Below are positions 29,902-64,000 of a stretch of 64,000 bases of DNA, in pieces. The DNA lies in the NCBI RefSeq assembly GCF_037042905.1, contig NC_087245.1, positions 19,408,001 through 19,472,000 of the forward strand, in the 5' to 3' direction. The position numbers and the translations under genes are program-made. Positions within the stretch are counted from its first letter, which is position 1. Each line of letters starts with the position of its first letter. Under the pieces are notes generated by a model that ran no database searches, had not been told where the DNA came from, and worked only from the letters and a program-made list of their open reading frames with translations. The DNA comes from Lytechinus pictus. Its lineage: Eukaryota.

Positions 29902-30058
29902 CTGGTTTAAATTTCTTTTCAGGGACCGCCTCAACGGGAGCAGACTCTACTGGTGCAGCTTCAACAGGTTCAATGACCGATGCTTCAACAATTTCAGATG
30001 GTGCCTCTTCTGAAACTTTAAGGGTGACCTCAGTTTCTACCTCCTGAGAAGCAAGCTG
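29902..30058 (-). CDS. Exon, E/V/A/P-rich linker (QLASQEVETEVTLKVSEEAPSEIVEASVIEPVEAAPVESAPVEAVPEKKFKP)
   Basis: Not in the ORF track; NAGNAG acceptor tagCAG, donor gtaggt; 157 bp, phase 0-1. Confidence 0.9.
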
Positions 30059-30845
30059 CTATACAGAAAAAGGTACAGTGAATTAACAGACGTATCCATA
30101 TTAAAATTGGCATCTTTTGTCTCATTGGGTTTTCAAAACATTGATTCATTTTCTTTTGTCTCCTATCAAGATCAGACAAGAGACAATATTAAGTAATAAA
30201 ATATTTCAACTTCAAAGAAAGAAGACATTGCAATGCTGTTGATTTATGTTATTTTATGTTGAGAAAGCAAATGTTACAAAGAGTAAATAATTTGATCAAA
30301 CAAACATGTCACGTTCTTAAAGTAGCACTTAATATCCTAATGTTATGTGATTTCAAAGTGAAATGAATTACTAAGAAAGAAAGAAATGTGTTTTCTTGTT
30401 ATCTCTGCTTTTCAAAATAAGTTTCTTCCATTGCCCCCCAGTACTGCATATTGTTTTTTTCCACTCTTTTAGCTCACTATAATTTGTCAAAATAAGAACT
30501 ATTTCATGAAATGAGGAAAGACACACCAGGTGCTAAAACCGTTGGAAGTTACTGGAAACTTTTGACATTTATTTTCTTAAGTTAAAAGGTAAGATGAGTG
30601 AGAGTAAACGAATGACTACCAAAATTACTTTGGTATTAAGTAGTACATGAAAATGATTCTGGAATAAAGGTAATAATAAGGGCAAAATTTGATACACGAA
30701 CACATTGACATATAATTAACAAGAAAAAAATATCAAGAAAAGCTAAGAGTGATGCTTCCTGTTCTAAATATAAACAATGTTGAAAAGTATTCAATTTCAG
30801 TGTCTCCAAATAGCAATTCCATGAAAAAGGCAAGATACCAATTAC

Positions 30846-33800
30846 CTTTGCAGTTTCCTCTGCTTTGCGCTTCTCTACTGCATCAATATGTTTCCGAATA
30901 AGCTTCATTTGGATGATACCCTTTTTCCTCAAAATCTTTTCATAATCTTTAGGTTCAACGTTCTTTAAAAGCTCAAAGACTTCTTCTGCTTCCTTTTCTT
31001 CTTTGGTCAAAGGCTTCTTCTTTTCGGGCATCTTTACCTCAACAGCCTCTTCTTTGTCTTCAGGTTTCTTTTTCATGATCTTAACCTCAGCCTTTTCCTC
31101 CTCCTCTGGTTTTTTAGGAGCGATCTCAAATTCTACTTCAGTGGGAGCCGCTTCCTCTGGTTTAGATGGTTCAATAGTAACAACTGTTTCCTCTGGTGCT
31201 GCTTCTGTTGGTTTGTCAAGAGTGATCTCCATTTCTTCCAGAGTTGCTTCTTCGGCCTTACGTTTTTCAACCATCTCGATGTGTTTCTTGATGACTTTAG
31301 TCTGTATGACACCTTTCTTCCTCAAAACCTTTTCATACTGCTCGGGTTGTACATCCTTAAGAAGTTTAAAGACTTCTTCTGCTTCCTTTTCTTCTTTGGT
31401 CAGAGGCTTCTTCTTTTCGGGTACCTTTACCTCAACAACCTCTTCTGTGTCTTCTGGTTTCTTCTTCATGATCTTAATCTCAACTTTTTCCTCCTCCTCT
31501 GGTTTCTTAGGAGCGATCTTAATTTGAACTTCAGTGGGAGCCGCTTCCTCTGGTTTAGATGGTTCAATAGTAACAACTCTCTCCTCTGGTGCTGCTTCTG
31601 TTGGTTTGTCCAGAGTGATCTCTATTTCTTCCAGAGTTGCTTCTTTGGCCTTACGTTTTTCAACAATCTCGATGTGTTTCTTGATGACTTTAGTCTGTAT
31701 GACACCTTTCTTCCTCAAAACCTTTTCATACTGCTCGGGTTGTACATCCTTAAGAAGTTCAAAGACTTCTTCAGCTTCCTTTTCTTCTTTGGTCAAAGGC
31801 TTCTTCTTTTCGGGTACCTTTACCTCAACAACCTCTTCTGTGTCTTCTGGTTTCTTCTTCATGATCTTAACTTCGACCTTTTCCTCCTCCTCTGGTTTCT
31901 TAGGAGCGATCTTACTTTCTACTTCAGTGAGAGCTGCTTCCTCTGGTTTAGATGGTTCAATGGTAACAACTGTTTCTTCTGGTGCTGCTTCTGTTGGTTT
32001 GTCAAGAGTGATCTCCATTTCTTCCAGAGTTGCTTCTTCGGCCTTACGTTTTTCAACCATCTCGATGTGTTTCTTGATGACCTTAGTCTGGATGACGCCT
32101 TTCTTTCTCAAAACCTTCTCATACTGCTCGGGTTGTACATCCTTAAGAAGTTCAAAGACTTCTTCAGCTTCCTTTTCTTCTTTGGTCAAAGGCTTCTTCT
32201 TTTCGGGTACCTTTACCTCAACAACCTCTTCTGTGTCTTCTGGTTTCTTCTTCATGATCTTAATCTCAACTTTTTCCTCCTCCTCTGGTTTCTTAGGAGC
32301 GATCTTAATTTCTACTTCAGTGAGAGCTGCTTCCTCTGGTTTAGATGGTTCAATGGTAACAACTGTTTCTTCTGGTGCTGCTTCTGTTGGTTTGTCAAGA
32401 GTGATCTCCATTTCTTCCAGAGTTGCTTCTTCGGCCTTACGTTTTTCAACCATCTCGATGTGTTTCTTGATGACTTTAGTCTGTATGACGCCTTTCTTCC
32501 TCAAAACCTTTTCATACTGCTCGGGTTGTACATCCTTAAGAAGTTCAAAGACTTCTTCAGCTTCCTTTTCTTCTTTGGTCAAAGGCTTCTTCTTTTCGGG
32601 TACCTTTACCTCAACAACCTCTTCTGTGTCTTCTGGTTTCTTCTTCATGATCTTAATCTCAACTTTTTCCTCCTCCTCTGGTTTCTTAGGAGCGATCTTA
32701 ATTTCTACTTCAGTGAGAGCTGCTTCCTCTGGTTTAGATGGTTCAATGGTAACAACTGTTTCTTCTGGTGCTGCTTCTGTTGGTTTGTCAAGAGTGATCT
32801 CCATTTCTTCCAGAGTTGCTTCTTCGGCCTTACGTTTTTCAACCATCTCGATGTGTTTCTTGATGACCTTAGTCTGGATGACGCCTTTCTTTCTCAAAAC
32901 CTTCTCATACTGCTCGGGTTGTACATCCTTAAGAAGTTCAAAGACTTCTTCAGCTTCCTTTTCTTCTTTGGTCAAAGGCTTCTTCTTTTCGGGTACCTTT
33001 ACCTCAACAACCTCTTCTGTGTCTTCTGGTTTCTTCTTCATGATCTTAACCTCGACCTTTTCCTCCTCCTCTGGTTTCTTAGGAGCGATCTTAATTTCTA
33101 CTTCAGTGAGAGCTGCTTCCTCTGGTTTAGATGGTTCAATGGTAACAACTGTTTCTTCTGGTGCTGCTTCTGTTGGTTTGTCAAGAGTGATCTCCATTTC
33201 TTCCAGAGTTGCTTCTTCGGCCTTTCGTTTTTCAACCATCTCGATGTGTTTCTTGATGACCTTAGTCTGGATGAGGCCTTGCTTTCTCAAAACCTTCTCA
33301 TACTGCTCGGGTTGTACATCCTTAAGAAGTTCAAAGACTTCTTCAGCTTCCTTTTCTTCTTTGGTCAAAGGCTTCTTCTTTTCGGGTACCTTTACCTCAA
33401 CAACCTCTTCTGTGTCTTCTGGTTTCTTCTTCATAATCTTAATCTCAACTTTTTCCTCCTCCTCTGGTTTCTTAGGAGCGATCTTAATTTGTACTTCAGT
33501 GGGAGCCGCTTCCTCTGGTTTAGATGGTTCAATAGTAACAACTGTCTCCTCTGGTGCTGCTTCTGTTGGTTTGTCCAGAGTGATCTCCATTTCTTCAAGA
33601 GTTGCTTCTTCGGCCTTACGTTTTTCAACAATCTCGATGTGTTTCTTGATGACTTTAGTCTGTATGACACCTTTCTTCCTCAAAACCTTTTCATACTGCT
33701 CGGGTTGTACATCCTTAAGAAGTTCAAAGACTTCTACAGCTTCCTTTTCTTCTTTGGTCAAAGGCTTCTTCTTTTCGGGTACCTTTACCTCAACAACCTC

Positions 33801-36800
33801 TTCTGTGTCTTCTGGTTTCTTCTTCATGATCTTAACCTCGACCTTTTCCTCCTCCTCTGGTTTCTTAGGAGCGATCTTAATTTCTACTTCAGTGAGAGCT
33901 GCTTCCTCTGGTTTAGATGGTTCAATAGTTACAACTGTTTCTTCTGGTGCTGCTTCTGTTGGTTTGTCAAGAGTGATCTCCATTTCTTCCAGAGTTGCTT
34001 CTTCGGCCTTACGTTTTTCAACCATCTCGATGTGTTTCTTGATGACTTTAGTCTGTATGACGCCTTTCTTCCTCAAAACCTTTTCATACTGCTCGGGTTG
34101 TACATCCTTAAGAAGTTCAAAGACTTCTTCTGCTTCCTTTTCTTCTTTGGTCAAAGGCTTCTTCTTTTCGGGTACCTTTACCTCAACAACCTCTTCTGTG
34201 TCTTCTGGTTTCTTCTTCATGATCTTAATCTCAACTTTTTCCTCCTCCTCTGGTTTCTTAGGAGCGATCTTAATTTCTACTTCAGTGAGAGCTGCTTCCT
34301 CTGGTTTAGATGGTTCAATGGTAACAACTGTTTCTTCTGGTGCTGCTTCTGTTGGTTTGTCAAGAGTGATCTCCATTTCTTCCAGAGTTGCTTCTTCGGC
34401 CTTACGTTTTTCAACCATCTCGATGTGTTTCTTGATGACCTTAGTCTGGATGACGCCTTTCTTTCTCAAAACCTTCTCATACTGCTCGGGTTGTACATCC
34501 TTAAGAAGTTCAAAGACTTCTTCAGCTTCCTTTTCTTCTTTGGTCAAAGGCTTCTTCTTTTCGGGTACCTTTACCTCAACAACCTCTTCTGTGTCTTCTG
34601 GTTTCTTCTTCATGATCTTAACCTCGACCTTTTCCTCCTCCTCTGGTTTCTTAGGAGCGATCTTAATTTGTACTTCAGTGGGAGCCGCTTCCTCTGGTTT
34701 AGATGGTTCAATAGTAACAACTGTTTCTTCTGGTGCTGCTTCTGTTGGTTTGTCAAGAGTGATCTCCATTTCTTCCAGAGTTGCTTCTTCGGCCTTACGT
34801 TTTTCAACCATCTCGATGTGTTTCTTGATGACTTTAGTCTGTATGACACCTTTCTTCCTCAAAACCTTTTCATACTGCTCGGGTTGTACATCCTTAAGAA
34901 GTTCAAAGACTTCTTCTGCTTCCTTTTCTTCTTTGGTCAAAGGCTTCTTCTTTTCGGGTACCTTTACCTCAACAACCTCTTCTGTGTCTTCTGGTTTCTT
35001 CTTCATGATCTTAATCTCAACTTTTTCCTCCTCCTCTGGTTTCTTAGGAGCGATCTTAATTTCTACTTCAGTGAGAGCTGCTTCCTCTGGTTTAGATGGT
35101 TCAATGGTAACAACTGTTTCTTCTGGTGCTGCTTCTGTTGGTTTGTCAAGAGTGATCTCCATTTCTTCCAGAGTTGCTTCTTCGGCCTTACGTTTTTCAA
35201 CCATCTCGATGTGTTTCTTGATGACCTTAGTCTGGATGACGCCTTTCTTTCTCAAAACCTTCTCATACTGCTCGGGTTGTACATCCTTAAGAAGTTCAAA
35301 GACTTCTTCAGCTTCCTTTTCTTCTTTGGTCAAAGGCTTCTTCTTTTCGGGTACCTTTACCTCAACAACCTCTTCTGTGTCTTCTGGTTTCTTCTTCATG
35401 ATCTTAACCTCGACCTTTTCCTCCTCCTCTGGTTTCTTAGGAGCGATCTTAATTTGTACTTCAGTGGGAGCCGCTTCCTCTGGTTTAGATGGTTCAATAG
35501 TAACAACTGTTTCTTCTGGTGCTGCTTCTGTTGGTTTGTCAAGAGTGATCTCCATTTCTTCCAGAGTTGCTTCTTCGGCCTTACGTTTTTCAACCATCTC
35601 GATGTGTTTCTTGATGACTTTAGTCTGTATGACACCTTTCTTCCTCAAAACCTTTTCATACTGCTCGGGTTGTACATCCTTAAGAAGTTCAAAGACTTCT
35701 ACAGCTTCCTTTTCTTCTTTGGTCAAAGGCTTCTTCTTTTCGGGTATCTTTACCTCAACAACCTCTTCTGTGTCTTCTGGTTTCTTCTTCATGATCTTAA
35801 CCTCGACCTTTTCCTCCTCCTCTGGTTTCTTAGGAGCGATCTTAATTTCTACTTCAGTGAGAGCTGATTCCTCTGGTTTAGATGGTTCAATAGTTACAAC
35901 TGTTTCTTCTGGTGCTGCTTCTGTTGGTTTGTCAAGAGTGATCTCCATTTCTTCCAGAGCTGCTTCTTCGGCCTTACGTTTTTCAACCATCTCGATGTGT
36001 TTCTTGATGACTTTAGTCTGTATGACGCCTTTCTTCCTCAAAACCTTTTCATACTGCTCGGGTTGTGCATCCTTAAGAAGTTCAAAGACTTCTTCAGCTT
36101 CCTTTTCTTCTTTGGTCAAAGGCTTCTTCTTTTCGGGTACCTTTACCTCAACAACCTCTTCTGTGTCTTCTGGTTTCTTCTTCATGATCTTAATCTCAAC
36201 TTTTTCCTCCTCCTCTGGTTTCTTAGGAGCGATCTTAATTTCTACTTCAGTGAGAGCTGCTTCCTCTGGTTTAGATGGTTCAATGGTAACAACTGTTTCT
36301 TCTGGTGCTGCTTCTGTTGGTTTGTCAAGAGTGATTTCCATTTCTTCCAGAGTTGCTTCTTCGGCCTTACGTTTTTCAACCATCTCGATGTGTTTCTTGA
36401 TGACCTTAGTCTGGATGACGCCTTTCTTTCTCAAAACCTTCTCATACTGCTCGGGTTGTACATCCTTAAGAAGTTCAAAGACTTCTTCAGCTTCCTTTTC
36501 TTCTTTGGTCAAAGGCTTCTTCTTTTCGGGTACCTTTACCTCAACAACCTCTTCTGTGTCTTCTGGTTTCTTCTTCATGATCTTAACCTCGACCTTTTCC
36601 TCCTCCTCTGGTTTCTTAGGAGCGATCTTAATTTCTACTTCAGTGAGAGCTGCTTCCTCTGGTTTAGATGGTTCAATAGTTACAACTGTTTCTTGTGGTG
36701 CTGCTTCTGTTGGTTTGTCAAGAGTGATCTCCATTTCTTCCAGAGTTGCTTCTTCGGCCTTACGTTTTTCAACCATCTCGATGTGTTTCTTGATGACTTT

Positions 36801-38738
36801 AGTCTGTATGACGCCTTTCTTCCTCAAAACCTTTTCATACTGCTCGGGTTGTACATCCTTAAGAAGTTCAAAGACTTCTTCAGCTTCCTTTTCTTCTTTG
36901 GTCAAAGGCTTCTTCTTTTCGGGTACCTTTACCTCAACAACCTCTTCTGTGTCTTCTGGTTTCTTCTTCATGATCTTAATCTCAACTTTTTCCTCCTCCT
37001 CTGGTTTCTTAGGAGCGATCTTAATTTGTACTTCAGTGGGAGCCGCTTCCTCTGGTTTAGATGGTTCAATAGTAACAACTGTCTCCTCTGGTGCTGCTTC
37101 TGTTGGTTTGTCCAGAGTGATCTCCATTTCTTCCAGAGTTGCTTCTTCTGTCTTACGTTTCTCAACCATCTCGATGTGTTTCTTGATGATCTTAGTCTGG
37201 ATGACGCCTTTCTTCCTCAATACCTTTTCATACTGCTCGGGTTGTACATCCTTAAGAAGTTCAAAGACTTCTTCTGCTTCCTTTTCTTCTTTGGTCAGAG
37301 GCTTTTTCTTTTCGGGTACCTTCACCTCAACAGCCTCTTCTTTTTCTTCTGGTTTCTTTTTCATGATCTTAACCTCGACCTTTTCCTCCTCCTCTGGTTT
37401 CTTAGGAGCGATCTTAACTTGTACTTCAGTTGGAGCTGCTTCCTCTGGTTTAGATGGTTCAATGGTAACAACTGTTTCTTCTGGTGCTGCTTCTGTTGGT
37501 TTGTCAAGAGTGATCTCCATTTCTTCCAGAGTTGCTTCTTCGGCCTTACGTTTTTCAACCATCTCGATGTGTTTCTTGATGACCTTAGTCTGGATGACGC
37601 CTTTCTTTCTCAAAACCTTCTCATACTGCTCGGGTTGTACATCCTTAAGAAGTTCAAAGACTTCTTCTGCTTCCTTTTCTTCTTTGGTCAGAGGCTTCTT
37701 CTTTTCGGGTACCTTTACCTCAACAACCTCTTCTGTGTCTTCTGGTTTCTTCTTCATGATCTCAACCTCGACTTTTTCTTCCTCCTCTGGTTTCTTAGGA
37801 GCGATCTTAATTTCTACTTCAGTGAGAGCTGCTTCCTCTGGTTTAGATGGTTCAATGGTAACAACTGTTTCTTCTGGTGCTGCTTCTGTTGGTTTGTCAA
37901 GAGTGATCTCCATTTCTTCCAGAGTTGCTTCTTCAGCCTTACGTTTCTCAACCATCTCGATGTGTTTCTTGATGATCTTAGTCTGGATGACGCCTTTCTT
38001 CCTCAAAACCTTTTCATACTGCTCGGGTTGTACATCCTTAAGAAGTTCAAAGACTTCTTCTGCTTCCTTTTCTTCTTTGGTCAGAGGTTTCTTCTTTTCA
38101 GGCACCTTTACCTCAACAGCCTCTTCTTTTTCTTCTGGTTTCTTTTTCATGATCTTAACCTCGACCTTTTCCTCCTCCTCTGGTTTCTTAGGAGCGATCT
38201 TAATTTGTACTTTAGTGGGAGCCGCTTCCTCTGGTTTAGATGGTTCAATAGTAACAACTGTCTCCTCTGGTGCTGCTTCTGTTGGTTTGTCCAGAGTGAT
38301 CTCCATTTCTTCCAGAGTTGCTTCTTCGGCCTTACGTTTCTCAACCATCTCGATGTGTTTCTTGATGACCTTAGTCTGGATGACGCCTTTCTTTCTCAAA
38401 ACCTTTTCATACTGCTCGGGTTGTACATCCTTAAGAAGTTCAAAGACTTCTTCTGCTTCCTTTTCTTCTTTGGTCAGAGGCTTCTTCTTTTCGGGTACCT
38501 TTACCTCAACAGCTTCTTCTTTTTCTTCTGGTTTCTTTTTCATGATCTTAATCTCGACCTTTTCCTCCTCCTCAGGTTTCTTAGGAGCGATCTTAATTTG
38601 TACTTCAGAGGGAGCCGCTTCTTCTGGTTTAGATGGTTCAATAGTAACAACTTCGACAGTTGAAGTTGTGTCTCCTACCGGCATCTGATCTGTAGTTATT
38701 TCAAGAGAGATTTCCATTTCTTCTGGTAGCTTTCCATC
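30846..38738 (-). CDS. Giant exon A: 7,893 bp, 20 tandem 393-bp (131-aa) units, each a THB motif plus PEVK-like spacer
   Basis: Uninterrupted ORF; acceptor ttctgatttcag|GAT, donor AAG|gtaatt; phase 0-0; unit core EEVFELLKDVQPEQYEKVLRKKGVIQTKVIKKHIEMVEK. Confidence 0.93.
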
Positions 38739-40829: not shown

Positions 40830-41325
40830 AGGGAAAGTTCACCCTGACAAAAAGTTTATTGTAGAAATAACAGAAAAAATGATAAAGAATATTGCCGAAG
40901 GCTTGAAAAAAAATCCATCAAAGAATAAAAAAAAAGTTATTAGAATTTTAATCTTACGATTTGTGACGTCATATGCGAACAGCTTTCCTACATATGGTAT
41001 GGAAAAATTCATTGAAATGTCATTTTCTCAAAAAATTGAAAATGGTTTTCTCTATAAGTTCAGCATATCAATAGACAAAACATATTTCACACCCATTCTT
41101 AAAAGGAAAACAAAAATAAGTCACCACAAACCATTAAAAAATTGAAATTTATGCATTTTATATTACATAAAAAATGTGGCATCTGCTCGTTTATTACCTC
41201 ACGAATCCCAAACTTAAAATTTTAATAAATTTCTTAATATTGAATGGATTTTCCTCAAGCGTTTACCAATATTTTTTTTTTCTGCTATTTTTACAACAAA
41301 CTTTTCTCCAGGGTGAACTTCCCCT
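40830..41325. mobile_element. MITE with TTAA target duplication (Kolobok/T2-type)
   Basis: TTAA|AGGGAAAGTTCACCCTG ... CAGGGTGAACTTCCCCT|TTAA. Confidence 0.8.
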
Positions 41326-41821
41326 TTAATGAACAGCTCCATAGTTTTTTTTTTCAGTAGTATTCTTCGTAATTATCCTGGTTGTAATCCTTCTACTGTC
41401 TCACAATTGGCTAGATTATAATAATTTCACTTCTATGTCAGTGATTCAATTGTTTGGGCAGTGGTGTATCTTGGGCCCAGGGCATGGGGGCTGCAGTAGC
41501 GTTAAAAACTATCTTGAGCATGATAACAATTGAATATTTTAGAAAATATTTTAAATCCCCGTGTCTGCCAGATATGATTCTAGTAAAAAAAAAATCCCCT
41601 TTAAATCAGAAAGTGAAGCAAGCGACTGACAACAGTTTTTGGTTCAATAGGTGCGTTGACACAAGCCATCCATAGCATTTGACAAATGAGAAACAGGCAA
41701 CTTTAAACAAACCTTAATATTCATATCTAGAGAATCTACATGCTTGGTCAATGAATCTATTTAAACCACATTTTCTTCAAACAAGATTATTTATCATGGC
41801 CTTTTTACAATATAACAATGC

Positions 41822-42240: not shown

Positions 42241-42297
42241 GTCAGAATTAACTATCACTGCGAATGAGATAACTTTCCACAAGGCAATAGTTTTTAA

Positions 42298-42845
42298 AGG
42301 GGAATGAAACCTTTGGAATAAGCAGGCTTGTGTCGAAACAGAAAAATCAAAGAAAATTTGAGAAAAAACGGACAAATAATAAGAAAGTCATGAGCATTTG
42401 AATATTGCAATCACTAATGCCATAGAGATCCTCCAATTGGCAATGCGACAAGGATGTGTGATGTCACATGTGAACAACTTTCCCTTTGATGGACTATATA
42501 TACTCCCAAAATGTCTCTTTTTGTTTTTTCTTATGGTGATACAAACTCTTTATCCATGATTAATTATTTAAAAATCTGTATTACATGCCCTCCTATAGAA
42601 AGAACACATGATCTACTGATAGTAAAATATATACTAAAGCTATGGTTAGAGTTGTTCACAAGTGACATCACACATCTTTGTCGCATTGCCCATGTGAGGA
42701 TCTCCATAGCATTAGTGATCGCAATATTCAAATGGTCATGACTTTCTCATTATTCATCCGATTTTTCTCAAACTTTCGTTGATCTGTTTCTTAGATTTTT
42801 TCTGTTTTCACACAAGCTATCTTATTCCAAAAGTTTCATTTTCCT
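42298..42845. mobile_element. Long-TIR MITE with TTAA target duplication (Kolobok/T2-type)
   Basis: TTAA|AGGGGAATGAAACCTTTGGAATAAG ... CTTATTCCAAAAGTTTCATTTTCCT|TTAA; inverted arms of about 180 bp. Confidence 0.8.
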
Positions 42846-43078: not shown

Positions 43079-46000
43079 CTTTGTTTTTTTAATGATGTGT
43101 TGAATAGTAGATTGGTCATCTTCAAATTTCAAAAATACATCGGCAGAATCAGATTTGTATGCAGCAGATTCTTCTTCTTTCTTACGTGCCTCAACAATAT
43201 CAATATGTTGCCTAATGACTTTGTACTGTGTGATGCCTTTCTTACATAAAACGTTTTCATATTCAACAGGTTCAACATTCTTCAGAAGTTGGTAGATTTC
43301 TTCCTCATCCTGTTCTTCCTTAGTCATTGGTTTCTTCTTCTCTCCCGGCATTGTGATTTCAAGGGAGACTTCTCCCATAAGTGCTTCCTCTGGTTTAGTA
43401 GGAGCTATTTCAAGAGTGATTTCAGTTGGTTCAACTTCTTCTGGCTTGACACCCACAATGGTTACAGCCGTCTCCTCAGTAATAACCTCGGTTGGCTGTA
43501 CAGTCACTTCCTCCATCTCGGCCAAGACAGCCTCCTCAGCAAGTTGTTTTGTAACCCTCTCAATATGTTGCCTAATGGTTTTGTACTGTATGATGCCCTT
43601 TTTCCGTAGAACCTTTTCATATTCAACAGGTTCAACATTCTTCAGAAGTTGGTAGATTTCTTCCTCCTCCTCTTCTTCCTTAGTCATAGGTTTCTTTTTC
43701 TCTACTGGCATTTTGATTTCAAGGGATACTTCTCCCGGCACTGCTTCCTTTGGTTTAGTAGGAGCTATTTCAAGAGTGATTTCAGTTGGTTCAACTTCTT
43801 CTGGCTTGACACCAACAATGGTTACAGCCGTCTCCTCAGTAATAACCTCGGTTGGCTGTACAGTCACTTCCTCCATCTCGGCCAAGACAGCCTCCTCAGC
43901 AAGTTGTTTTGTTACCCTCTCAATATGTTGCCTAATGGCTTTGTACTGTATGATGCCCTTTTTACGTAGAACCTTTTCATATTCAACAGGTTCAATATTC
44001 TTCAGAAGTTGGTAGATTTCTTCCTCCTCCTCTTCTTCCTTAGTCATAGGTTTCTTTTTCTCTACTGGCATTTTGATTTCAAGGGATACTTCTCCCGGCA
44101 CTGCTTCCTTTGGTTTAGTAGGAGCTATTTCAAGAGTGATTTCAGTTGGTTCAACTTCTTCTGGCTTGACACCAACTATGGTTACAGCCGTCTCCTCAGT
44201 AATAACCTCGGTTGGCTGTACAGTCACTTCCTCCATCTGGGCCAAGACAGCCTCATCAGCAAGTTGTTTTGTTACCCTTTCAATATGTTGCCTAATGGCT
44301 TTGTACTGTATAATGCCCTTTTTACGTAGAACCTTTTCATATTCAACAGGTTCAACATTCTTCAGAATTTGGTAGATTTCTTCCTGTTCCTCTTCTTCCT
44401 TAGTCATTGGTTTCTTTTTCTCTACTGGCATTTTGATTTCAAGGGAGACTTCTCCCGGCACTGCTTCCTCTGGTTTAGTAGGAGCTATTTCAAGAGTGAT
44501 TTCAGTTGGTTCAACTTCTTCTGGCTTGACACCAACAATGGTTACAGCCGTCTCCTCAGTAATAACCTCGGTTGGCTGTACAGTCACTTCCTCCATCTCA
44601 GCCAAGACAGCCTCCTCAGCAAGTTGTTTTGTAACCCTCTCAATATGTTGCCTAATGGCTTTGTACTGTATGATGCCCTTTTTACGTAGAACCTTTTCAT
44701 ATTCAACAGGTTCAACATTCTTCAGAAGTTGGTAGATTTCTTCCTCCTCCTCTTCTTCCTTAGTCATATGTTTCTTTTTCTCTTCCGGCATTTTGATTTC
44801 AAGGGAGACTTCTCCCATCACTGCTTCCTTTGATTTAGTAGGAGCTATTTCAAGAGTGATTTCAGTTGGTTCAACTTCTTCTGGCTTGACACCAACAATG
44901 GTTACAGCCGTCTCCTCAGTAATAACCTCGGTTGGCTGTACAGTCACTTCCTCCATCTCGGCCAAGACAGCCTCCTCAGCAAGTTGTTTTGTTACCCTTT
45001 CAATATGTTGCCTAATGGCTTTGTACTGTATGATGCCCTTTTTACGTAGAACCTTTTCATATTCAACAGGTTCAACATTCTTCAGAAGTTGGTAGATTTC
45101 TTCCTGTTCCTCTTCTTCCTTAGTCATAGGTTTCTTTTTCTCTACTGGCATTTTCATTTCAAGGGAGACTTCTCCAGGCACTGCTTCCTCTGGTTTAGTA
45201 GGAGCTATTTCAAGAGTGATTTCAGTTGGTTCAACTTCTTCTGGCTTGACACCAACAATGGTTACAGCCGTCTCCTCAGTAATAACCTCGGTTGGCTGTA
45301 CAGTCACTTCCTCCATCTCGGCCAAGACAGCCTCCTCAGCAAGTTGTTTTGTTACCCTCTCAATATGTTGCCTAATGGCTTTGTACTGTATGATGCCCTT
45401 TTTACGTAGAACCTTTTCATATTCAACAGGTTCAACATTCTTCAGAAGTTGGTTGATTTCTTCCTCCTCCTCTTCTTCCTTAGTCATAGGTTTCTTCTTC
45501 TCTACCGGTATTTTGATTTCAAGGGAGACTTCTCCTGGCACTGCTTCCTCTGGTTTAGTAGGAGCTATTTCAAGAGTGATTTCAGTTGGTTCAACTTCTT
45601 CTGGCTTGACACCAACAATGGTTACAGCCGTCTCCTCAGTAATAACCTCGGTTGGCTGTACAGTCACTTCCTCCATCTCGGCCAAGACAGCCTCCTCAGC
45701 AAGTTGTTTTGTTACCCTTTCAATATGTTGCCTAATGGCTTTGTACTGTATGATGCCCTTTTTACGTAGAACCTTTTCATATTCAACAGGTTCAACATTC
45801 TTCAGAAGTTGGTAGATTTCTTCCTGTTTCTCTTCTTCCTTAGTCATAGGTTTCTTTTTCTCTTCCGGCATTTTGATTTCAAGGGAGACTTCTTCCGGTA
45901 CTGCTTCCTCTGGTTTAGTAGGAGCTATTTTAAGAGTGATTTCAGTTGGTTCAACTTCTTCTGGCTTGACACCAACAATGGTTACAGCCGTCTCCTCAGT

Positions 46001-49000
46001 AATAACCTCGGTTGGCTGTACAGTCACTTCCTCCATCTCGGCCAAGACAGCCTCCTCAGCAAGTTGTTTTGTAACCCTTTCAATATGTTGCCTAATGGCT
46101 TTGTACTGTATGATGCCCTTTTTACGTAGAACCTTTTCATATTCAACAGGTTCAACATTCTTCAGAAGTTGGCAGATTTCTTCCTCCTCCTCTTCTTCCT
46201 TAGTCATAGGTTTCTTCTTCTCTACTGGCATTTTGATTTCAAGGGAGACTTCTCCCGGCACTGCTTCCTCTAGTTTAGTAGGAGCTATTTCAAGAGTGAT
46301 TTCAGTTGGTTCAACTTCTTCTGGCTTGACACCAACAATGGTTACAGCCGTCTCCTCAGTAATAACCTCGGTTGGCTGTACAGTCACTTCCTCCATCTCG
46401 GCCAAGACAGCCTCCTCAGCAAGTTGTTTTGTAACCCTTTCAATATGTTGCCTAATGGCTTTGTACTGTATGATGCCCTTTTTACGTAGAACCTTTTCAT
46501 ATTCAACAGGTTCAACATTCTTCAGAAGTTGGTAGATTTCTTCCTGTTCCTCTTCTTCCTTAGTCATAGGTTTCTTCTTCTCTACTGGCATTTTGATTTC
46601 AAGGGAGACTTCTCCCGGCACTGCTTCCTCTGGTTTAGTAGGAGCTATTTCAAGAGTGATTTCAGTTGGTTCAACTTCTTCTGGCTTGACACCAACAATG
46701 GTTACAGCCATCTCCTCAGTAATAACCTCGGTTGGCTGTACAGTCACTTCCTCCATCTCGGCCAAGACAGCCTCCTCAGCAAGTTGTTTTGTAACCCTCT
46801 CAATATGTTGCCTAATGGCTTTGTACTGTATGATGCCCTTTTTACGTAGAACCTTTTCATATTCAACAGGTTCAACATTCTTCAGAAGTTGGTAGATTTC
46901 TTCCTCCTCCTCTTCTTCCTTAGTCATAGGTTTCTTCTTCTCTACCGGCATTTTGATTTCAAGGGAGACTTCTCCCGGCACTGCTTCCTCTGGTTTTGTA
47001 GGAGCTATTTCAAGAGTGATTTCAGTTGGTTCAACTTCTTCTGGCTTGACACCAACAATGGTTACAGCCGTCTCCTCAGTAATAACCTCGGTTGGCTGTA
47101 CAGTCACTTCCTCCATCTCGGCCAAGACAGCCTCCTCAGCAAGTTGTTTTGTAACCCTCTCAATATGTTGCCTAATGGCTTTGTACTGTATGATGCCCTT
47201 TTTACGTAGAACCTTTTCATATTCAACAGGTTCAACATTCTTCAGAAGTTGGTAGATTTCTTCCTCCTCCTCTTCTTCCTTAGTCATAGGTTTCTTCTTC
47301 TCTACCGGCATTTTGATTTCAAGGGAGACTTCTCCCGGCACTGCTTCCTCTGGTTTTGTAGGAGCTATTTCAAGAGTGATTTCAGTTGGTTCAACTTCTT
47401 CTGGCTTGACACCAACAATGATTACAGCCGTCTCCTCAGTAATAACCTCGGTTGGCTGTACAGTCACTTCCTCCATCTCAGCCAAGACAGCCTCCTCAGC
47501 AAGTTGTTTTGTAACCCTCTCAATATGTTGCCTAATGGCTTTGTACTGTATGATGCCCTTTTTACGTAGAACCTTTTCATATTCAACAGGTTCAACATTC
47601 TTCAGAAGTTGGTAGATTTCTTCCTCCTCCTCTTCTTCCTTAGTCATAGGTTTCTTCTTCTCTACTGGCATTTTGATTTCAAGGGAGACTTCTCCTGGCA
47701 CTGCTTCCTCTAGTTTAGTAGGAGCTATTTCAAGAGTGATTTCAGTTGGTTCAACTTCTTCTGGCTTGACACCAACAATGGTTACAGCCGTCTCCTCAGT
47801 AATAACCTCGGTTGGCTGTACAGTCACTTCCTCCATCTCGGCCAAGACAGCCTCCTCAGCAAGTTGTTTTGTAACCCTTTCAATATGTTGCCTAATGGCT
47901 TTGTACTGTATGATACCCTTTTTACGTAGAACCTTTTCATATTCAACAGGTTCAACATTCTTCAGAAGTTGGTAGATTTCTTCCTCCTCCTCTTCTTCCT
48001 TAGTCATAGGTTTCTTCTTCTCTACTGGCATTTTGATTTCAAGGGAGACTTCTCCCGGCACTGCTTCCTCTAGTTTAGTAGGAGCTATTTCAAGAGTGAT
48101 TTCAGTTGGTTCAACTTCTTCTGGCTTGACACCAACAATGGTTACAGCCGTCTCCTCAGTAATAACCTCGGTTGGCTGTACAGTCACTTCCTCCATCTCG
48201 GCCAAGACAGCCTCCTCAGCAAGTTGTTTTGTAACCCTTTCAATATGTTGCCTAATGGCTTTGTACTGTATGATGCCCTTTTTACGTAGAACCTTTTCAT
48301 ATTCAACAGGTTCAACATTCTTCAGAAGTTGGTAGATTTCTTCCTGTTCCTCTTCTTCCTTAGTCATAGGTTTCTTCTTCTCTACTGGCATTTTGATTTC
48401 AAGGGAGACTTCTCCCGGCACTGCTTCCTCTGGTTTAGTAGGAGCTATTTCAAGAGTGATTTCAGTTGGTTCAACTTCTTCTGGCTTGACACCAACAATG
48501 GTTACAGCCATCTCCTCAGTAATAACCTTGGTTGGCTGTACAGTCACTTCCTCCATCTCGGCCAAGACAGCCTCCTCAGCAAGTTGTTTTGTAACCCTTT
48601 CAATATGTTGCCTAATGGCTTTGTACTGTATGATGCCCTTTTTACGTAGAACCTTTTCATACTCAACAGGTTCAACATTCTTCAGAAGTTGGTAGATTTC
48701 TTCCTCCTCCTCTTCTTCCTTAGTCATAGGTTTCTTCTTCTCTACTGGCATTTTGATTTCAAGGGAGACTTCTCCCATCACTGCTTCCTCTGGTTTTATA
48801 GTAGGAGTTATTTCAAGAGTGATTTCAGTTGGTTCAACTTCTTCTGGCTTGACACCAACAATGGTTACAGCCGTCTCCTCAGTAATAACCTCGGTTGGCT
48901 GTACAGTCACTTCCTCCAACTCGGCCAAGACAGCCTCCTCAGCAAGTTGTTTTGTAACCCTTTCAATATGTTGCCTAATGGCTTTGTACTGTATGATGCC

Positions 49001-52000
49001 CTTTTTACGTAGAACCTTTTCATATTCAACAGGTTCAACATTCTTCAGAAGTTGGTAGATTTCCCCCTTCTCCTCTTCTTCCTTAGTCATAGGTTTCTTC
49101 TTCTCTACTGGCATTTTGATTTCAAGGGAGACTTCTCCCGGCACTGCTTCCTCTACTTTAGTAGGAGCTATTTCAAGAGTGATTTCAGTTGGTTCAACTT
49201 CTTCTGGCTTGACACCAGCAATGGTTACAGCCGTCTCCTCAGTAATAACCTCGGTTGGCTGTACAGTCACTTCCTCCATCTCGGCCAAGACAGCCTCCTC
49301 AGCAAGTTGTTTTGTAACCCTCTCAATATGTTGCCTAATGGCTTTGTACTGTATGATGCCCTTTTTACGTAGAACCTTTTCATATTCAACAGGTTCAACA
49401 TTCTTCAGAAGTTGGTAGATTTCTTCCTCCTCCTCTTCTTCCTTAGTCATAGGTTTCTTCTTCTCTACCGGCATTTTGATTTCAAGGGAGACTTCTCCCG
49501 GCACTGCTTCCTCTGGTTTTGTAGGAGCTATTTCAAGAGTGATTTCAGTTGGTTCAACTTCTTCTGGCTTGACACCAACAATGGTTACAGCCGTCTCCTC
49601 AGTAATAACCTCGGTTGGCTGTACAGTCACTTCCTCCATCTCGGCCAAGACAGCCTCCTCAGCAAGTTGTTTTGTAACCCTCTCAATATGTTGCCTAATG
49701 GCTTTGTACTGTATGATGCCCTTTTTACGTAGAACCTTTTCATATTCAACAGGTTCAACATTCTTCAGAAGTTGGTAGATTTCTTCCTCCTCCTCTTCTT
49801 CCTTAGTCATAGGTTTCTTCTTCTCTACTGGCATTTTGATTTCAAGGGAGACTTCTCCTGGCACTGCTTCCTCTAGTTTAGTAGGAGCTATTTCAAGAGT
49901 GATTTCAGTTGGTTCAACTTCTTCTGGCTTGACACCAACAATGGTTACAGCCGTCTCCTCAGTAATAACCTCGGTTGGCTGTACAGTCACTTCCTCCATC
50001 TCGGCCAAGACAGCCTCCTCAGCAAGTTGTTTTGTAACCCTTTCAATATGTTGCCTAATGGCTTTGTACTGTATGATGCCCTTTTTACGTAGAACCTTTT
50101 CATATTCAACAGGTTCAACATTCTTCAGAAGTTGGTAGATTTCTTCCTCCTCCTCTTCTTCCTTAGTCATAGGTTTCTTCTTCTCTACTGGCATTTTGAT
50201 TTCAAGGGAGACTTCTCCCGGCACTGCTTCCTCTAGTTTAGTAGGAGCTATTTCAAGAGTGATTTCAGTTGGTTCAACTTCTTCTGGCTTGACACCAACA
50301 ATGGTTACAGCCGTCTCCTCAGTAATAACCTCGGTTGGCTGTACAGTCACTTCCTCCATCTCGGCCAAGACAGCCTCCTCAGCAAGTTGTTTTGTAACCC
50401 TTTCAATATGTTGCCTAATGGCTTTGTACTGTATGATGCCCTTTTTACGTAGAACCTTTTCATATTCAACAGGTTCAACATTCTTCAGAAGTTGGTAGAT
50501 TTCTTCCTGTTCCTCTTCTTCCTTAGTCATAGGTTTCTTCTTCTCTACTGGCATTTTGATTTCAAGGGAGACTTCTCCCGGCACTGCTTCCTCTGGTTTA
50601 GTAGGAGCTATTTCAAGAGTGATTTCAGTTGGTTCAACTTCTTCTGGCTTGACACCAACAATGGTTACAGCCATCTCCTCAGTAATAACCTCGGTTGGCT
50701 GTACAGTCACTTCCTCCATCTCGGCCAAGACAGCCTCCTCAGTAAGTTGTTTTGTAACCCTCTCAATATGTTGCCTAATGGCTTTGTACTGTATGATGCC
50801 CTTTTTACGTAGAACCTTTTCATATTCAACAGGTTCAACATTCTTCAGAAGTTGGTAGATTTCTTCCTCCTCCTCTTCTTCCTTAGTCATAGGTTTCTTC
50901 TTCTCTACTGGCATTTTGATTTCAAGGGAGACTTCTCCCGGCACTGCTTCCTCTGGTTTAGTAGGAGCTATTTCAAGAGTGATTTCAGTTGGTTTTACTT
51001 CTTCTGGCTTAACACCAACAATGGTTACAGCCGTCTCCTGAGTAATGATCTCGGTTGGCTGTATAGTCACTTCCTCCATCTCGGCCAAGACAGCCTCCTC
51101 AGCAAGTTGTTTTGTAACCCTTTCAATATGTTGCCTAATGGCTTTGTACTGTATGATGCCCTTTTTACGTAGAACCTTTTCATACTCAACAGGTTCAACA
51201 TTCTTCAGAAGTTGGTAGATTTCTTCCTCCTCCTCTTCTTCCTTAGTCATAGGTTTCTTCTTCTCTACTGGCATTTTGATTTCAAGGGAGACTTCTCCTG
51301 GCACTGCTTCCTCTAGTTTAGTAGGAGCTATTTCAAGAGTGATTTCAGTTGGTTCAACTTCTTCTGGCTTGACACCAACAATGGTTACAGCCGTCTCCTC
51401 AGTAATAACCTCTGTTGGCTGTACAGTCACTTCCTCCATCTCGGCCAAGACAGCCTCCTCAGCAAGTTGTTTTGTAACCCTTTCAATATGTTGCCTAATG
51501 GCTTTGTACTGTATGATGCCCTTTTTACGTAGAACCTTTTCATATTCAACAGGTTCAACATTCTTCAGAAGTTGGTAGATTTCTTCCTCCTCCTCTTCTT
51601 CCTTAGTCATAGGTTTCTTCTTCTCTACTGGCATTTTGATTTCAAGGGAGACTTCTCCCGGCACTGCTTCCTCTAGTTTAGTAGGAGCTATTTCAAGAGT
51701 GATTTCAGTTGGTTCAACTTCTTCTGGCTTGACACCAACAATGGTTACAGCCGTCTCCTCAGTAATAACCTCGGTTGGCTGTACAGTCACTTCCTCCATC
51801 TCGGCCAAGACAGCCTCCTCAGCAAGTTGTTTTGTAACCCTTTCAATATGTTGCCTAATGGCTTTGTACTGTATGATGCCCTTTTTACGTAGAACCTTTT
51901 CATATTCAACAGGTTCAACATTCTTCAGAAGTTGGTAGATTTCTTCCTGTTCCTCTTCTTCCTTAGTCATAGGTTTCTTCTTCTCTACTGGCATTTTGAT

Positions 52001-53845
52001 TTCAAGGGAGACTTCTCCCGGCACTGCTTCCTCTGGTTTAGTAGGAGCTATTTCAAGAGTGATTTCAGTTGGTTCAACTTCTTCTGGCTTGACACCAACA
52101 ATGGTTACAGCCATCTCCTCAGTAATAACCTCGGTTGGCTGTACAGTCACTTCCTCCATCTCGGCCAAGACAGCCTCCTCAGTAAGTTGTTTTGTAACCC
52201 TCTCAATATGTTGCCTAATGGCTTTGTACTGTATGATGCCCTTTTTACGTAGAACCTTTTCATATTCAACAGGTTCAACATTCTTCAGAAGTTGGTAGAT
52301 TTCTTCCTCCTCCTCTTCTTCCTTAGTCATAGGTTTCTTCTTCTCTACTGGCATTTTGATTTCAAGGGAGACTTCTCCCGGCACTGCTTCCTCTGGTTTA
52401 GTAGGAGCTATTTCAAGAGTGATTTCAGTTGGTTTTACTTCTTCTGGCTTAACACCAACAATGGTTACAGCCGTCTCCTGAGTAATGATCTCGGTTGGCT
52501 GTATAGTCACTTCCTCCATCTCGGCCAAGACAGCCTCCTCAGCAAGTTGTTTTGTAACCCTTTCAATATGTTGCCTAATGGCTTTGTACTGTATGATGCC
52601 CTTTTTACGTAGAACCTTTTCATACTCAACAGGTTCAACATTCTTCAGAAGTTGGTAGATTTCTTCCTCCTCCTCTTCTTCCTTAGTCATAGGTTTCTTC
52701 TTCTCTACTGGCATTTTGATTTCAAGGGAGACTTCTCCCATCACTGCTTCCTCTGGTTTTATAGTAGGAGCTATTTCAAGAGTGATTTCAGTTGGTTCAA
52801 CTTCTTCTGGCTTGACACCAACAATGGTTACAGCCGTCTCCTCAGTAATAACCTCGGTTAGCTGTACAGTCACTTCCTCCAACTCGGCCAAGACAGCCTC
52901 CTGAGCAAGTTGTTTTGTAACCCTTTCAATATGTTGCCTAATGGCTTTGTACTGTATGATGCCCTTTTTACGTAGAACCTTTTCATATTCAACAGGTTCA
53001 ACATTCTTCAGAAGTTGGTAGATTTCTTCCTTCTCCTCTTCTTCCTTAGTCATAGGTTTCTTCTTCTCTACTGGCATTTTGATTTCAAGGGAGACTTCTC
53101 CCGGCACTGCTTCCTCTACTTTAGTAGGAGCTATTTCAAGAGTGATTTCAGTTGGTTCAACTTCTTCTGGCTTGACACCAGCAATGGTTACAGCCGTCTC
53201 CTCAGTAATAACCTCGGTTGGCTGTACAGTCACTTCCTCCATCTCGGCCAAGACAGCCTCCTCAGCAAGTTGTTTTGTAACCCTTTCAATATGTTGCCTA
53301 ATGGCTTTGTACTGTATGATGCCCTTTTTACGTAGAACCTTTTCATATTCAACAGGTTCAACATTCTTCAGAAGTTGGTAGATTTCTTCCTCCTCCTCTT
53401 CTTCCTTAGTCATAGGTTTCTTCTTCTCTACCGGCATTTTGATTTGAAGGGAGACTTCTCCCGGCACTGCTTCCTCTACTTTAGTAGGAGCTATTTCAAG
53501 AGTGATTTCAGTTGGTTCAACTTCTTCTGGCTTGACACCAACAATGGTTACAGCCGTCTCCTCAGTAATAACCTCGGTTGGCTGTACAGTCACTTCCTCC
53601 ATCTTGGCCAAGACAGCCTCCTCAGCAAGTTGTTTTGTAACCCTTTCAATATGTTGCCTAATGGCTTTGTACTGAATGATGCCCTTTTTACGTAGAACCT
53701 TTTCATAATCAACAGGTTCAACATTCTTCAGAAGTTGGTAGATTTCTTCCTCCTCCTGTTCTTCCTTAGTCATAGGTTTCTTCTTCTCTTCTGGCAGTTT
53801 GATTTCAAGAGAGAATTGCTCAGCAAATTCAGTATCAGGTTTTCC
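43079..53845 (-). CDS. Giant exon B: 10,767 bp, 30 tandem 360-bp (120-aa) units, each a THB motif plus E/V/T/P-rich spacer
   Basis: Uninterrupted ORF; acceptor tttttacag|GGA, donor AAG|gtaagg; phase 0-0; unit core EEIYQLLKNVEPVEYEKVLRKKGIIQYKAIRQHIERVTK. Confidence 0.93.
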
Positions 53846-56277
53846 CTGTAAAAACAGAAGGCAATGACAGTTATCTTGCCCACTTTTATTAAAAAAGGCA
53901 GAACAATCCTGATTGGAAGCCATGCCGAAACCATGCTGCAGATGACTTACAGATTTCAATCCAGAAAGAGAAAAATACCATTCAGACATAGCTAAAGTAA
54001 AATGTGACATTGAAAATAATTGATGCAAATAAGCAAGAATATCATAATCCAGTCCTCAACATCTCTTTCCTTTATTTCCAAGAATATCTGACATCTTTGA
54101 CGCAAATACCTGTCAGGGTCTCAGAAAAGCTGTGAGTAAAAAGATGTTTTGAGATGTGTTTCTGAAATATCTCATTCACTCACTGAAAACATAATTAACA
54201 TTCTGAAAAAAAACCATTCCTCATAAGTACGACTCTGTCTTGCTAATGAAGTCATGCTTAACTCCTTGCCCCCATCAAAGGGATTCTTGGAGAAAATATG
54301 CAACGGTTCAAGAGCATGACAGAGTTTAAAAATCCATTTAACAAGGTGGATTGCAAAGCCTGCCTTACAACTGAAGGTGTGAGTTCAGCCACGGCCATTC
54401 TGGCAACACAGAATCATGCTAAAACTCACTGAGAAAGCATGTAATATCAGCAATAACAACATTACTTTACCTTGCATTGATGACATTACAAGTGGCATCG
54501 AATCCTTACTGAAATATATATCGATCTACTTGTCAAAAAATAGTTACTTTACCTTTCTTGAATTCCAGAATAGCTGACTGAAAAAAACCACATTCTCTAT
54601 AATTTTTAGAAATTAGTCAACATAATGTATGAATAAAAATAAGGAATCTTAGACAGAAGAAATCGGAAATGGTATGTGTACAGTCTATATTAATCTTTAT
54701 TAGGTTCTGTAAATCTGATTCTGTAAATCTATTTATTCATGTTTTTAAAGTTTAATTCTTTGTTTGATAACATGAATGAGTATCTGTTTCAACACATGTT
54801 ATTTAAAAGATATTACGTGTAATAACTATAATGTCTGAGGCCCAGTCCCACTAGCGTTTCAGAAGATTTGCAAAGTTTTAGGCCTACATTTGATGAACAT
54901 CAGCAACATTCATGAAACATGCTTGTTTGAATGGCAGAAACCCACCCACGTACACAATAAACCGTGAAGACACGGTTTTTTCTGTTCCCAGGATTTTTGA
55001 GCTGTAAAACATGTTTGGGTGCGGATGACATCGTATAATTCACATTATTGAACCTTTATTACATACTGCTTTAGACAAGCTTAAGGGCCATATATCATAG
55101 TGTATTAAATGGGGAAATTATACTTCAGCCTCTCATGTTGTTCGAGAAATATTATTATTTAGAAAATGGTAGATTTATGATTTAAGATTAAGATATTTTA
55201 GCGTAAGGAAGACAAAGCATGCTTTTCCCATCAGTTGTATGTTATTTCATTGAATGAATCTTCTTATGTTGTGTTTTAGTGAGAGCATAAGCCTAGCTGA
55301 TGTAATTTCAAAATGAAACTTCGCAATGAGAATAAAACCACTTTGTGACAAATTTTATAACCATATATATAAATATTCAATCCTTTTAGAAGCTATTTAC
55401 CACTTGTCAAATCATCCAGATAGCAGTATGTAAATAATGACAAGAAAGAAAATGAAAGCTTCAAAACCTAAAGTGACACTTGGCTGCGGCAATGAAGCAA
55501 AAATAACAAGATGAATGTAGGTGCATCAATAAAACACAGTGGGGGCAAAGGCCATAACTATCCACTTGTAATATGCTGGCAAAGAATGTAACAAACTCAA
55601 ATAAGAACCTATTACGAGCTTGTCGTCAATGAGACCGATTTATGAATGAACTGCGAATTATCGCATATTTACCCATAGGTACATCAGTCTTGATGACAAG
55701 CAAATATCACAGAAGCCAAGAAATAGAAAATATTATGCCTCATTCACATGCACGCCATGATAGAATGAAAGAAATCTTGAAATAATTCAAGCATATATCA
55801 AGGCCATAATAAGAAGTGCATATCCAGTACCAAGCAAAAATAATAGTACATGCGTGAGAGCATGGTACACGGTATCCATAAAAATCATTACTAAATTGTT
55901 GACTTAAATAAGAGTTCTCATATTGTGTATATTAATTCCCTTATTGCTTAGGAATCATATTGTGCTACATCTAATTTTTTTTCTGAATGTTGAGTATATA
56001 TTAAACACATAGAAGACATTTTCTGCATAAGTTTGGTTTTAATTCACCAATTGAAAATTGTGTTTCACATACACTATTGACAAAGTTTTTAAATCTAATC
56101 AGACACATATCTTCTATATACAGTAATTGTTGGTATATTAATGAATACCACAGACAAGATAATTTGTAATAAGACAGACAAGGATAAGACAGACAAGGAA
56201 AGAGTAATTACTGATCTATTTTTATTTAATTGACATAAAAACAGTGGACGAGCATGACGGGGAAACATAAAACTTAC

Positions 56278-56497
56278 CTCCAACTGAGCCTCAACTTCTG
56301 TCCTATGTCTTTCTTCCTCCTCAGCCTTCTTCGTCTTCACCATTTCAATGTGCTTCCGGATGACCTTGAAGTCGATGATGCCATGCTTTCGAAGGATCTT
56401 CTCATAGTCTTTTGGCTCCTCATCCTTAAGCAGTTCGTAGATTTCGATATCGGCCTTGGATTCAACCACCTCAGGCTTCTTCTCTTCTGGTTGTGGT
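56278..56497 (-). CDS. Exon, single THB motif (DIEIYELLKDEEPKDYEKILRKHGIIDFKVIRKHIEMVK)
   Basis: 220 bp, phase 2-0; acceptor aattacag, donor gtaagt. Confidence 0.93.
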
Positions 56498-63965: not shown

Positions 63966-64000
63966 AGTAAAGGCAAAATATCACACTTGGGGGAGTAATC

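What the first reader, a model, noticed from the sequence alone, without database searches (positions are those of the whole stretch)
29902..56497. Both giant exons are phase 0-0 cassettes, so splicing could tune THB number and protein length
Seen: exon 56278-56497 ends in phase 0; exon B (10,767 bp) and exon A (7,893 bp) are both multiples of 3 with phase-0 ends; exon 29902-30058 starts in phase 0. Most other introns in the gene are phase 1. Skipping A, B or both keeps the frame, giving 1, 21, 31 or 51 THBs in this segment and changing length by up to 6,220 aa. By hand count the units also differ in charge (about -9 per A unit, about -13 per B unit). Inference: tissue-specific spring-length or valency isoforms, analogous to titin PEVK splicing but using two huge internal exons.
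Basis: partly seen in the sequence, partly recalled or inferred. Interest (0 to 1): 0.7.

Follow-up and report, generated by a model that had tools for sequence, protein, structure and literature searches.

The report
Optional giant exon in urchin titin
A giant muscle-spring (titin) gene, probably from a sea urchin, carries two huge exons with 30 and 20 copies of a small helical module that vertebrate titin is reported to have once; RNA data indicate, indirectly, that the larger exon is likely left out in some samples and kept in others, which would switch the protein between 21 and 51 modules.

Summary
Observation confirmed. Exons B (10,767 nt, 30 tri-helix bundles, THBs) and A (7,893 nt, 20 THBs) are stop-free phase 0-0 exons of a titin/connectin gene. 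The THB's best PDB match is vertebrate titin UN2A. Phase alone says little: 19 of 30 modelled exons in the window are symmetric, and phase 0 is inherited from the THB exon's donor. RNA says more. Both arrays are transcribed. In one run (X2) a 2,145-nt contig carries the start of exon A plus 1,976 upstream letters, exactly the length a simulation gives for U joined to A with B skipped; B joined to A gives 205. The upstream letters were not displayed, so this is inferred from length, in one run. Three raw-read runs of one study show B on the sense strand at about single-exon depth. So B is probably a cassette exon (21 versus 51 THBs). Skipping of A (1 or 31 THBs) has no support, and tissue specificity and function are untested. 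Cassette splicing of giant spring exons is known (Drosophila Sls, IGFN1, titin N2B/N2BA); a spring built from repeated N2A-type bundles was not found in eight paper searches. The scan's notes showed no look-alike on other DNA.

The parts
61762..62894 (-). Exon P, 1,133 nt, P/E/V/K-rich, phase 1-0; first full exon of the chain that the X2 contig length implies
60992..61068 (-). Ig half-exon, 77 nt, phase 0-2
60085..60251 (-). Ig half-exon, 167 nt, phase 2-1
57828..57893 (-). Exon W, 66 nt linker, phase 1-1 (acceptor chosen from the open frame and pyrimidine tract; the script's first choice was 57857)
57022..57304 (-). Exon V, I-set Ig domain, phase 1-2; counterpart of the Ig that precedes UN2A in vertebrate titin (35% identity over 79 aa to that Ig in P0044)
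   Evidence: X4 contig covers 57079-57303
56278..56497 (-). Exon U, single THB, phase 2-0; best PDB match titin UN2A (7NIP, E 7.8e-6)
43079..53845 (-). Giant exon B, phase 0-0, 3,589 aa, 30 THBs in 120/121-aa units (360 nt, 97.5% mean identity); probable cassette exon
30846..38738 (-). Giant exon A, phase 0-0, 2,631 aa, 20 THBs in 131-aa units (393 nt, 96.4% mean identity); repeat covered in 4 of 4 contig runs
29902..30058 (-). Exon D, linker, phase 0-1, tandem acceptor (30058/30055); spliced to 29298 in X1 and X2
29035..29298 (-). Exon E, I-set Ig, phase 1-1; spliced onward to the exon at 26818 in X2 (loose end)
20088..21300 (-). Second Ig(1-2)-THB(2-0)-linker(0-1) module (exons 21300-21015, 20714-20543, 20208-20088) with no giant insert; shows that the phase-0 slot is ancestral

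Best explanation
This is the N2A-like region of a titin/connectin gene in which a linker-plus-tri-helix-bundle unit has been amplified into two giant in-frame exons, and exon B (30 bundles, 3,589 aa) is likely an optional cassette that is skipped in some samples and kept in others, while exon A (20 bundles) appears to be kept. Shown: exon anatomy, phases, THB identity by sequence, transcription of both arrays. Inferred: U-to-A joining in run X2 (from contig length); B inclusion in mature RNA of X10-X12 (from sense reads with empty introns); origin of B and A by duplication of one linker-THB exon followed by internal tandem expansion (52% identity between units, shared THB-ending layout). Untested: the result would be a 21- versus 51-THB protein whose acidic, probably disordered linkers add about 0.8 um of contour when B is kept, tuning I-band spring length and the number of N2A-type binding sites per molecule between muscle types or stages.
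For:: X2 contig of 2,145 nt (depth 27) lies on an A unit at record 2065-2145; its 30-letter loose end maps to one place only, window 38680-38651 in A's unique 5' segment (26 of 30 letters; next best 21), in register at 19 x 393 nt. That puts A's acceptor at record position 1977, with 1,976 letters upstream. k=31 de Bruijn simulation: U-A plus a read-through branch at the donor at 69168 gives 1,976 (30+1133+77+167+66+283+220); U-B-A gives 205; pre-mRNA 4,545; U-A mixed with U-B-A gives 2. 1,310 of the 1,946 31-mers in B's last 1,976 nt are repeated, so a contig cannot run through them, and in X4 the B array collapses to one 390-nt circular contig. Of 18 exon-boundary lengths up to 2,700 that I listed, one matches, about 0.7% by chance. 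B is transcribed: about 18 reads, all first-mate-plus (RNA from the minus strand in the usual stranded libraries), in X10-X12, 0.14 per copy against 0.12-0.28 on single-copy exons, and 0 sense letters in 11 intron-only bins where about 11 reads were expected if B cover were nascent RNA. A repeat covered in 4 of 4 runs of 3 studies. THB; AlphaFold2 gives three helices, a low-confidence linker (pLDDT under 50 at 55-110) and three helices. Kinase exon downstream is closest to titin kinase (1TKI, E 6.5e-14).
Against: I fixed the W acceptor while already expecting about 1,976; with the script's first choice (57857) the sum is 1,940. No junction into or out of B, and no A-D junction, was listed. The single-copy depth rests on about 3 reads from one study. 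X2 carries organism label A and X10-X12 label B, so a difference between individuals or species is possible, although X4 (label A) holds the B repeat. The fold search found no THB structure (best Z 5.4).
Confidence: 0.72

Rival explanations
1. Both exons are constitutive; phase 0-0 is only inherited from the duplicated THB exon, and length varies through repeat copy number between alleles and species, not splicing.
For: Phase 0 is ancestral: same 1-2/2-0/0-1 layout in the second module; predicted read-through proteins of relatives leave the U and A sequences at the same codon boundaries (P0004, P0005, P0001, P0051). Units are 96-98% identical within an array and differ in length between species, as under concerted evolution. 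B depth per copy in X10-X12 is close to single-copy depth.
Against: The X2 contig cannot hold 1,976 letters of B (205 predicted) and matches U-A to the base.
Confidence: 0.12
2. One reading: A and B are independent cassettes, giving 1, 21, 31 and 51 THBs in different muscles.
For: All four forms keep the frame. In X2 the D contig begins exactly 2 letters upstream of the D acceptor, which the simulation gives when D has two upstream partners sharing only AG, such as U and A.
Against: A U-D join in X2 would break the long contig at the U donor (30 letters upstream of A instead of 1,976); B-D with A-D would give 5 letters, not 2. The A repeat is present in 4 of 4 runs laid. Contigs drop rare variants, so rare or tissue-restricted A skipping is not excluded.
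Confidence: 0.25
3. B is missing from the genome of the animals behind X2 (deletion allele or sister species), so U-A is their only form and no regulated splicing is involved.
For: Runs labelled organism A differ from the window by about 3-4% in exons (6 of 225, 6 of 159 letters); giant repeat exons are prone to deletion (general knowledge).
Against: X4, also labelled organism A, holds the B repeat at 3 differences in 175 letters. X2 holds 0.10 of the words of 52500-57400, more than U and V alone would be expected to give at that divergence (my estimate; I did not lay X2 on B).
Confidence: 0.1
4. The arrays are inflated or mis-joined by the assembler and the copy numbers are not real.
For: Units are near-identical; copy number was not checked against DNA reads.
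Against: Both frames stay open over 3,589 and 2,631 codons; 21 of 27 equal-length B units and 17 of 19 A units are distinct; another species has at least 7 tandem A-type units in one protein (P0050).
Confidence: 0.05

Closest known systems
Vertebrate titin N2A element (I80-UN2A-I81-I82-I83) and I-band splicing (N2A, N2BA, N2B)
   Same: Ig followed by a THB whose best PDB hit is UN2A (7NIP); Ig-FN3-kinase gene; I-band length set by splicing (PMC11687307 and PMC12198301, passages read).
   Different: Those passages describe one UN2A bundle; here 52 THBs lie in one gene, 50 of them in two exons, each joined to an acidic linker. Vertebrate PEVK is spread over many small exons (recalled, not checked). 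MARP, S100A1, calpain or actin binding was not tested here.
Drosophila Sallimus (Sls) PEVK exons 31 and 32
   Same: [quoted passage not shown] This is the closest working model.
   Different: B is twice as long, is a near-perfect tandem array, and alternates a folded bundle with each linker; the gene also holds the FN3 rod and kinase that flies place in Projectin.
IGFN1 and IGFN1_v1
   Same: Ig/FN3 muscle protein whose large disordered middle segment is spliced out in a short isoform (PMC7584501, passage read).
   Different: IGFN1 has 11 domains and no THB array in the passages read; that it has a THB at all is recalled from Pfam, not shown by a call.
Myosin-binding protein C M-domain tri-helix bundle (Pfam PF18362)
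   Same: Sequence match of U and of the repeat profile (9PFE, 2LHU).
   Different: Single copy in a 1,274-aa protein; weaker match than UN2A.

Membership tests
Titin/connectin | Tandem I-set Ig domains with interspersed P/E/V/K-rich unique sequence | tested here: met
   Pfam I-set in 4 of 4 Ig exons scanned; linkers 60% and 67% P+E+V+K
Titin/connectin | FN3-rich rod followed by a titin-type kinase | tested here: met
   fn3 69 bits on 1 exon scanned; FN3-like exons continue by translation for about 68 kb beyond the window start; kinase exon in L020 is closest to titin kinase. One transcript across all of it is inferred from the same-strand exon chain.
Titin/connectin | Spans Z-disc to thick filament and acts as the passive spring | not testable with these tools
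   needs antibodies or tags in muscle
Titin N2A element | Ig immediately followed by a UN2A-type tri-helix bundle | tested here: met
   V is I-set, 35% identical to the Ig before the bundle in P0044; U matches 7NIP at E 7.8e-6
Titin N2A element | Three-helix fold superimposable on UN2A | tested here: inconclusive
   Model has three helices per unit, mean pLDDT 60.8; VIA-align 2 listed no THB entry, best Z 5.4
Titin N2A element | Binds MARP/CARP, calpain 3, S100A1 or actin | not tested
   no binding computation or partner search was run
Cassette exon (B) | Frame-preserving, canonical splice sites | tested here: met
Cassette exon (B) | Skipping junction observed | tested here: inconclusive
   Indirect only: contig length fits U-A exactly in 1 of 4 contig runs laid; junction letters not seen
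Cassette exon (B) | Inclusion observed | tested here: met
   Sense reads in 3 of 3 raw runs (one study) and a collapsed repeat contig in X4; inclusion junctions themselves not listed
Cassette exon (A) | Skipping junction observed | tested here: inconclusive
   None listed; contigs show presence, not absence

The most novel reading that the evidence does not exclude
Sea-urchin titin has polymerised the N2A signalling bundle into its spring, and one splice choice over a 10.8-kb exon switches both spring length and the number of working N2A-type binding sites (21 versus 51, possibly also 1 or 31) between muscle types: a valency switch, not only a length switch, that makes the disputed N2A-actin or N2A-partner clamp testable in a naturally amplified form.
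Probability: 0.3. Interest if true: 0.78.

Novelty: new variant of a known kind. Interest (0 to 1): 0.58.

Why it matters
Titin stiffness is known to be tuned by splicing of disordered spring exons. Here the optional exon also carries 30 copies of the bundle that forms the core of vertebrate titin's N2A hub, whose role in binding actin and partners is still argued (PMC11687307, passages read). If B skipping holds, an echinoderm offers natural 21- and 51-copy versions of that module in one gene, shows that the N2A bundle predates chordates, and gives a case of a 10.8-kb internal exon being recognised or skipped as one unit.

Tried and rejected
Run search: no RNA holder listed on record; RNA status of X1-X7 is a guess, supported for X1 and X2 by a GT-AG joint. 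First lay (53600-64000): a dispersed repeat near 63.7-64.0 kb filled the joint and loose-end tables, and no U-donor junction was listed; depth on single-copy exons was about 3 reads. Second lay: no contig covers A's unique last unit (30846-30968) or the A-D intron in any of 4 runs; a hole proves nothing, since records are filtered and diverged introns may fall under 88%. Internal phase-0 donor-like site in 19 A units (score 2.1 against 2.5 for the true donor) as a ladder of isoforms: rejected for X2, whose contig runs unbroken over that position (30973-31079). Read-through tail after A (69 codons, hydrophobic stretch, AATAAA at 30573): not conserved in P0001 or P0051, and AATAAA is as frequent in the other introns. 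Protein searches for spliced isoforms: U against 129-2,000 aa found 0 of 187 candidates; B against 1,973-6,281 aa 0 of 4,146; A start found 3 of 7,990, none spanning a junction; the HMMER search gave 47 hits, of which I read 17, none spanning an echinoderm U junction (P0002 is an 18th). Two metagenome scans found nothing. Atlas: no usable hit. Fold search: no THB listed. Eight paper searches showed no description of THB arrays or of splicing in echinoderm titin; the library lacks most subscription papers (for example the amphioxus connectin paper, seen only as a reference) and no supplements were read.

Full report
Observation. B is 10,767 nt (3,589 aa) and A 7,893 nt (2,631 aa), both without a stop. 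B holds 30 THB motifs in 120/121-aa units, A holds 20 in 131-aa units; mean nucleotide identity between units is 97.5% and 96.4%; mean charge -11.9 and -8.2, modes -13 and -9. An exon-chaining script of my own, trained on coding stretches of this gene, recovered U, B and A exactly and D with a tandem acceptor 3 nt on. In the window 21 of 30 modelled introns are phase 1 and 6 are phase 0.

The gene. With 200 kb of flank the exon chain runs from Ig and P/E/V/K-rich exons upstream, through this region, into an FN3 rod and a kinase whose nearest solved structure is titin kinase. It is a titin/connectin; sea urchin is the reading of earlier AI notes and I did not establish the species. U matches Pfam THB above cut-off and titin UN2A best among PDB chains (7NIP, E 7.8e-6); a profile of the repeats gives the same top hit. 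The Ig before U is 35% identical to the Ig before the bundle in a vertebrate-type titin fragment. So V-U is the counterpart of I80-UN2A (inference from sequence and order). AlphaFold2 on a B stretch gives three helices, a linker under pLDDT 50 and three helices again; the fold search was inconclusive. In this genome PF18362 scored only inside this gene (4 matches, a lower bound).

Why phase alone is weak. A second Ig(1-2), THB(2-0), linker(0-1) module at 21300-20088 has the same phases and no insert. Predicted read-through proteins from relatives leave the U and A sequences at the same codon boundaries. A and B units are 52% identical and both exons end just after a THB, so they probably arose from one duplicated linker-THB exon that inherited phase 0. 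Seventeen further exons in the window are symmetric 1-1. Symmetry permits skipping but does not show it.

Both arrays are transcribed. On 53600-64000 three raw-read runs of one study put about 18 reads on B's first unit, all on one strand, about 0.14 per copy against 0.12-0.28 on single-copy exons (about 3 reads), with no sense letters in 11 intron-only bins. X4 holds a 390-nt circular contig, the collapsed 360-nt unit. On 28900-31230 the A repeat is covered in 4 of 4 contig runs of 3 studies, and X1 and X2 show the GT-AG join of D to the next exon.

Evidence that B is skipped. X2 has a 2,145-nt contig whose last 81 letters lie on an A unit; its loose end maps only to 38680-38651 in A's unique 5' segment (26 of 30) and in exact register. 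A's acceptor is then record position 1977, leaving 1,976 letters upstream. A k=31 simulation on the window's own sequence gives 205 for B-A, 4,545 for unspliced RNA, 2,597 for U-A without a branch (the start of my model), 2 for a mixture of U-A and U-B-A, and 1,976 for U-A when the donor at 69168 also reads through. That read-through is the alternative ending of note e1-8076198; its open frame is visible. One of 18 listed boundary lengths under 2,700 matches, about 0.7% by chance. Limits: the letters were not seen; one run; no indels assumed; I settled the W acceptor (57893, best pyrimidine tract and open frame) when I already expected this sum, and the script's first choice gives 1,940. The unbroken contig also implies that U-B, B-A and U-D joins are rare or absent in X2's graph.

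Exon A. Nothing supports skipping it. X2's D contig starts exactly 2 letters before the acceptor, as expected if D has two upstream partners sharing only AG. U-D is excluded in that run by the unbroken contig, B-D with A-D would give 5, and an internal A donor is excluded by a contig that crosses it. A retained intron, an unknown exon or a chance end remain. This is unexplained.

Mechanism. Most likely (0.72) B is a cassette that switches the protein between 21 and 51 THBs in this segment. At 0.35 nm per residue (figure quoted in PMC12063666) B's linkers add about 0.79 um of contour and A's 0.59 um. Spring function, muscle-type control and binding by the bundles are inferred from titin and Sls and are untested.

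Comparison and novelty. Papers seen as passages only: PMC12198301, PMC7584501, PMC11687307, PMC12063666; others only as search listings; no supplements read. Splicing out large spring exons is established for Sls exons 31/32, for IGFN1 and for vertebrate titin. A spring made of tandem N2A-type bundles, and splicing that changes their number, appeared in none of eight searches, which miss most subscription journals. A-type arrays with other unit lengths occur in at least two other sequence sets (P0001/P0002/P0050 and P0003/P0051). Verdict: new variant of a known kind, interest 0.58.

Noticed in passing
window 29902-31230: In X2 the contig upstream of A has depth 27 and the A repeat sums to roughly 370-590, but D and E contigs have 2.6-4.8; in X1 the repeat (45.5 over about 19 copies) matches D (2.5). 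Contig depth cannot rank parts of a gene, so this is only a lead towards an A-terminated, Novex-3-like message.
   Followed up: partly
window 30056-30060: Tandem acceptor at D (30058/30055); X2 uses 30058, and its contig begins exactly 2 letters upstream, hinting at a second upstream partner.
   Followed up: partly
window 20088-21300: Second single Ig-THB module in the same gene, so the protein has two N2A-like sites.
   Followed up: partly
L004-L011 (about 95,400-101,000, 107,200-117,800, 121,200-131,800 and 153,400-157,000 in window-extended coordinates): Four more giant open frames upstream in the same gene (1,952, 3,669, 3,571 and 1,238 codons); best-scoring boundaries suggest 1-1, 0-1, 1-1 and 2-0, but these are uncertain.
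   Followed up: partly
L002, donor at about 69168 in window-extended coordinates: 72-nt exon whose frame reads on into a hydrophobic tail; the X2 contig length fits a branch here, which agrees with note e1-8076198.
   Followed up: partly
window 12458-14559: Intronic 46-nt tandem array, 45.8 copies, 85% matches.
   Followed up: no
window 27186-28856: Dispersed 1.65-kb repeat with dozens of 86-90% copies on other contigs.
   Followed up: no
window 63670-63960 and 60190-60890: Highly covered dispersed repeats (the first looks like a tRNA-derived SINE by its loose ends; not tested).
   Followed up: no
window 40826-41329 and 42294-42849: Imperfect inverted repeats inside the B-A intron, probably small transposons; could affect RNA folding near A's acceptor.
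   Followed up: no
window 2892-3369 and 5125-5602: 478-nt intronic duplication at 99% identity.
   Followed up: no
proteins P0006 and P0007: Predicted short proteins from other animals that look like single-THB exons of the array type, possibly the unexpanded ancestral state.
   Followed up: no
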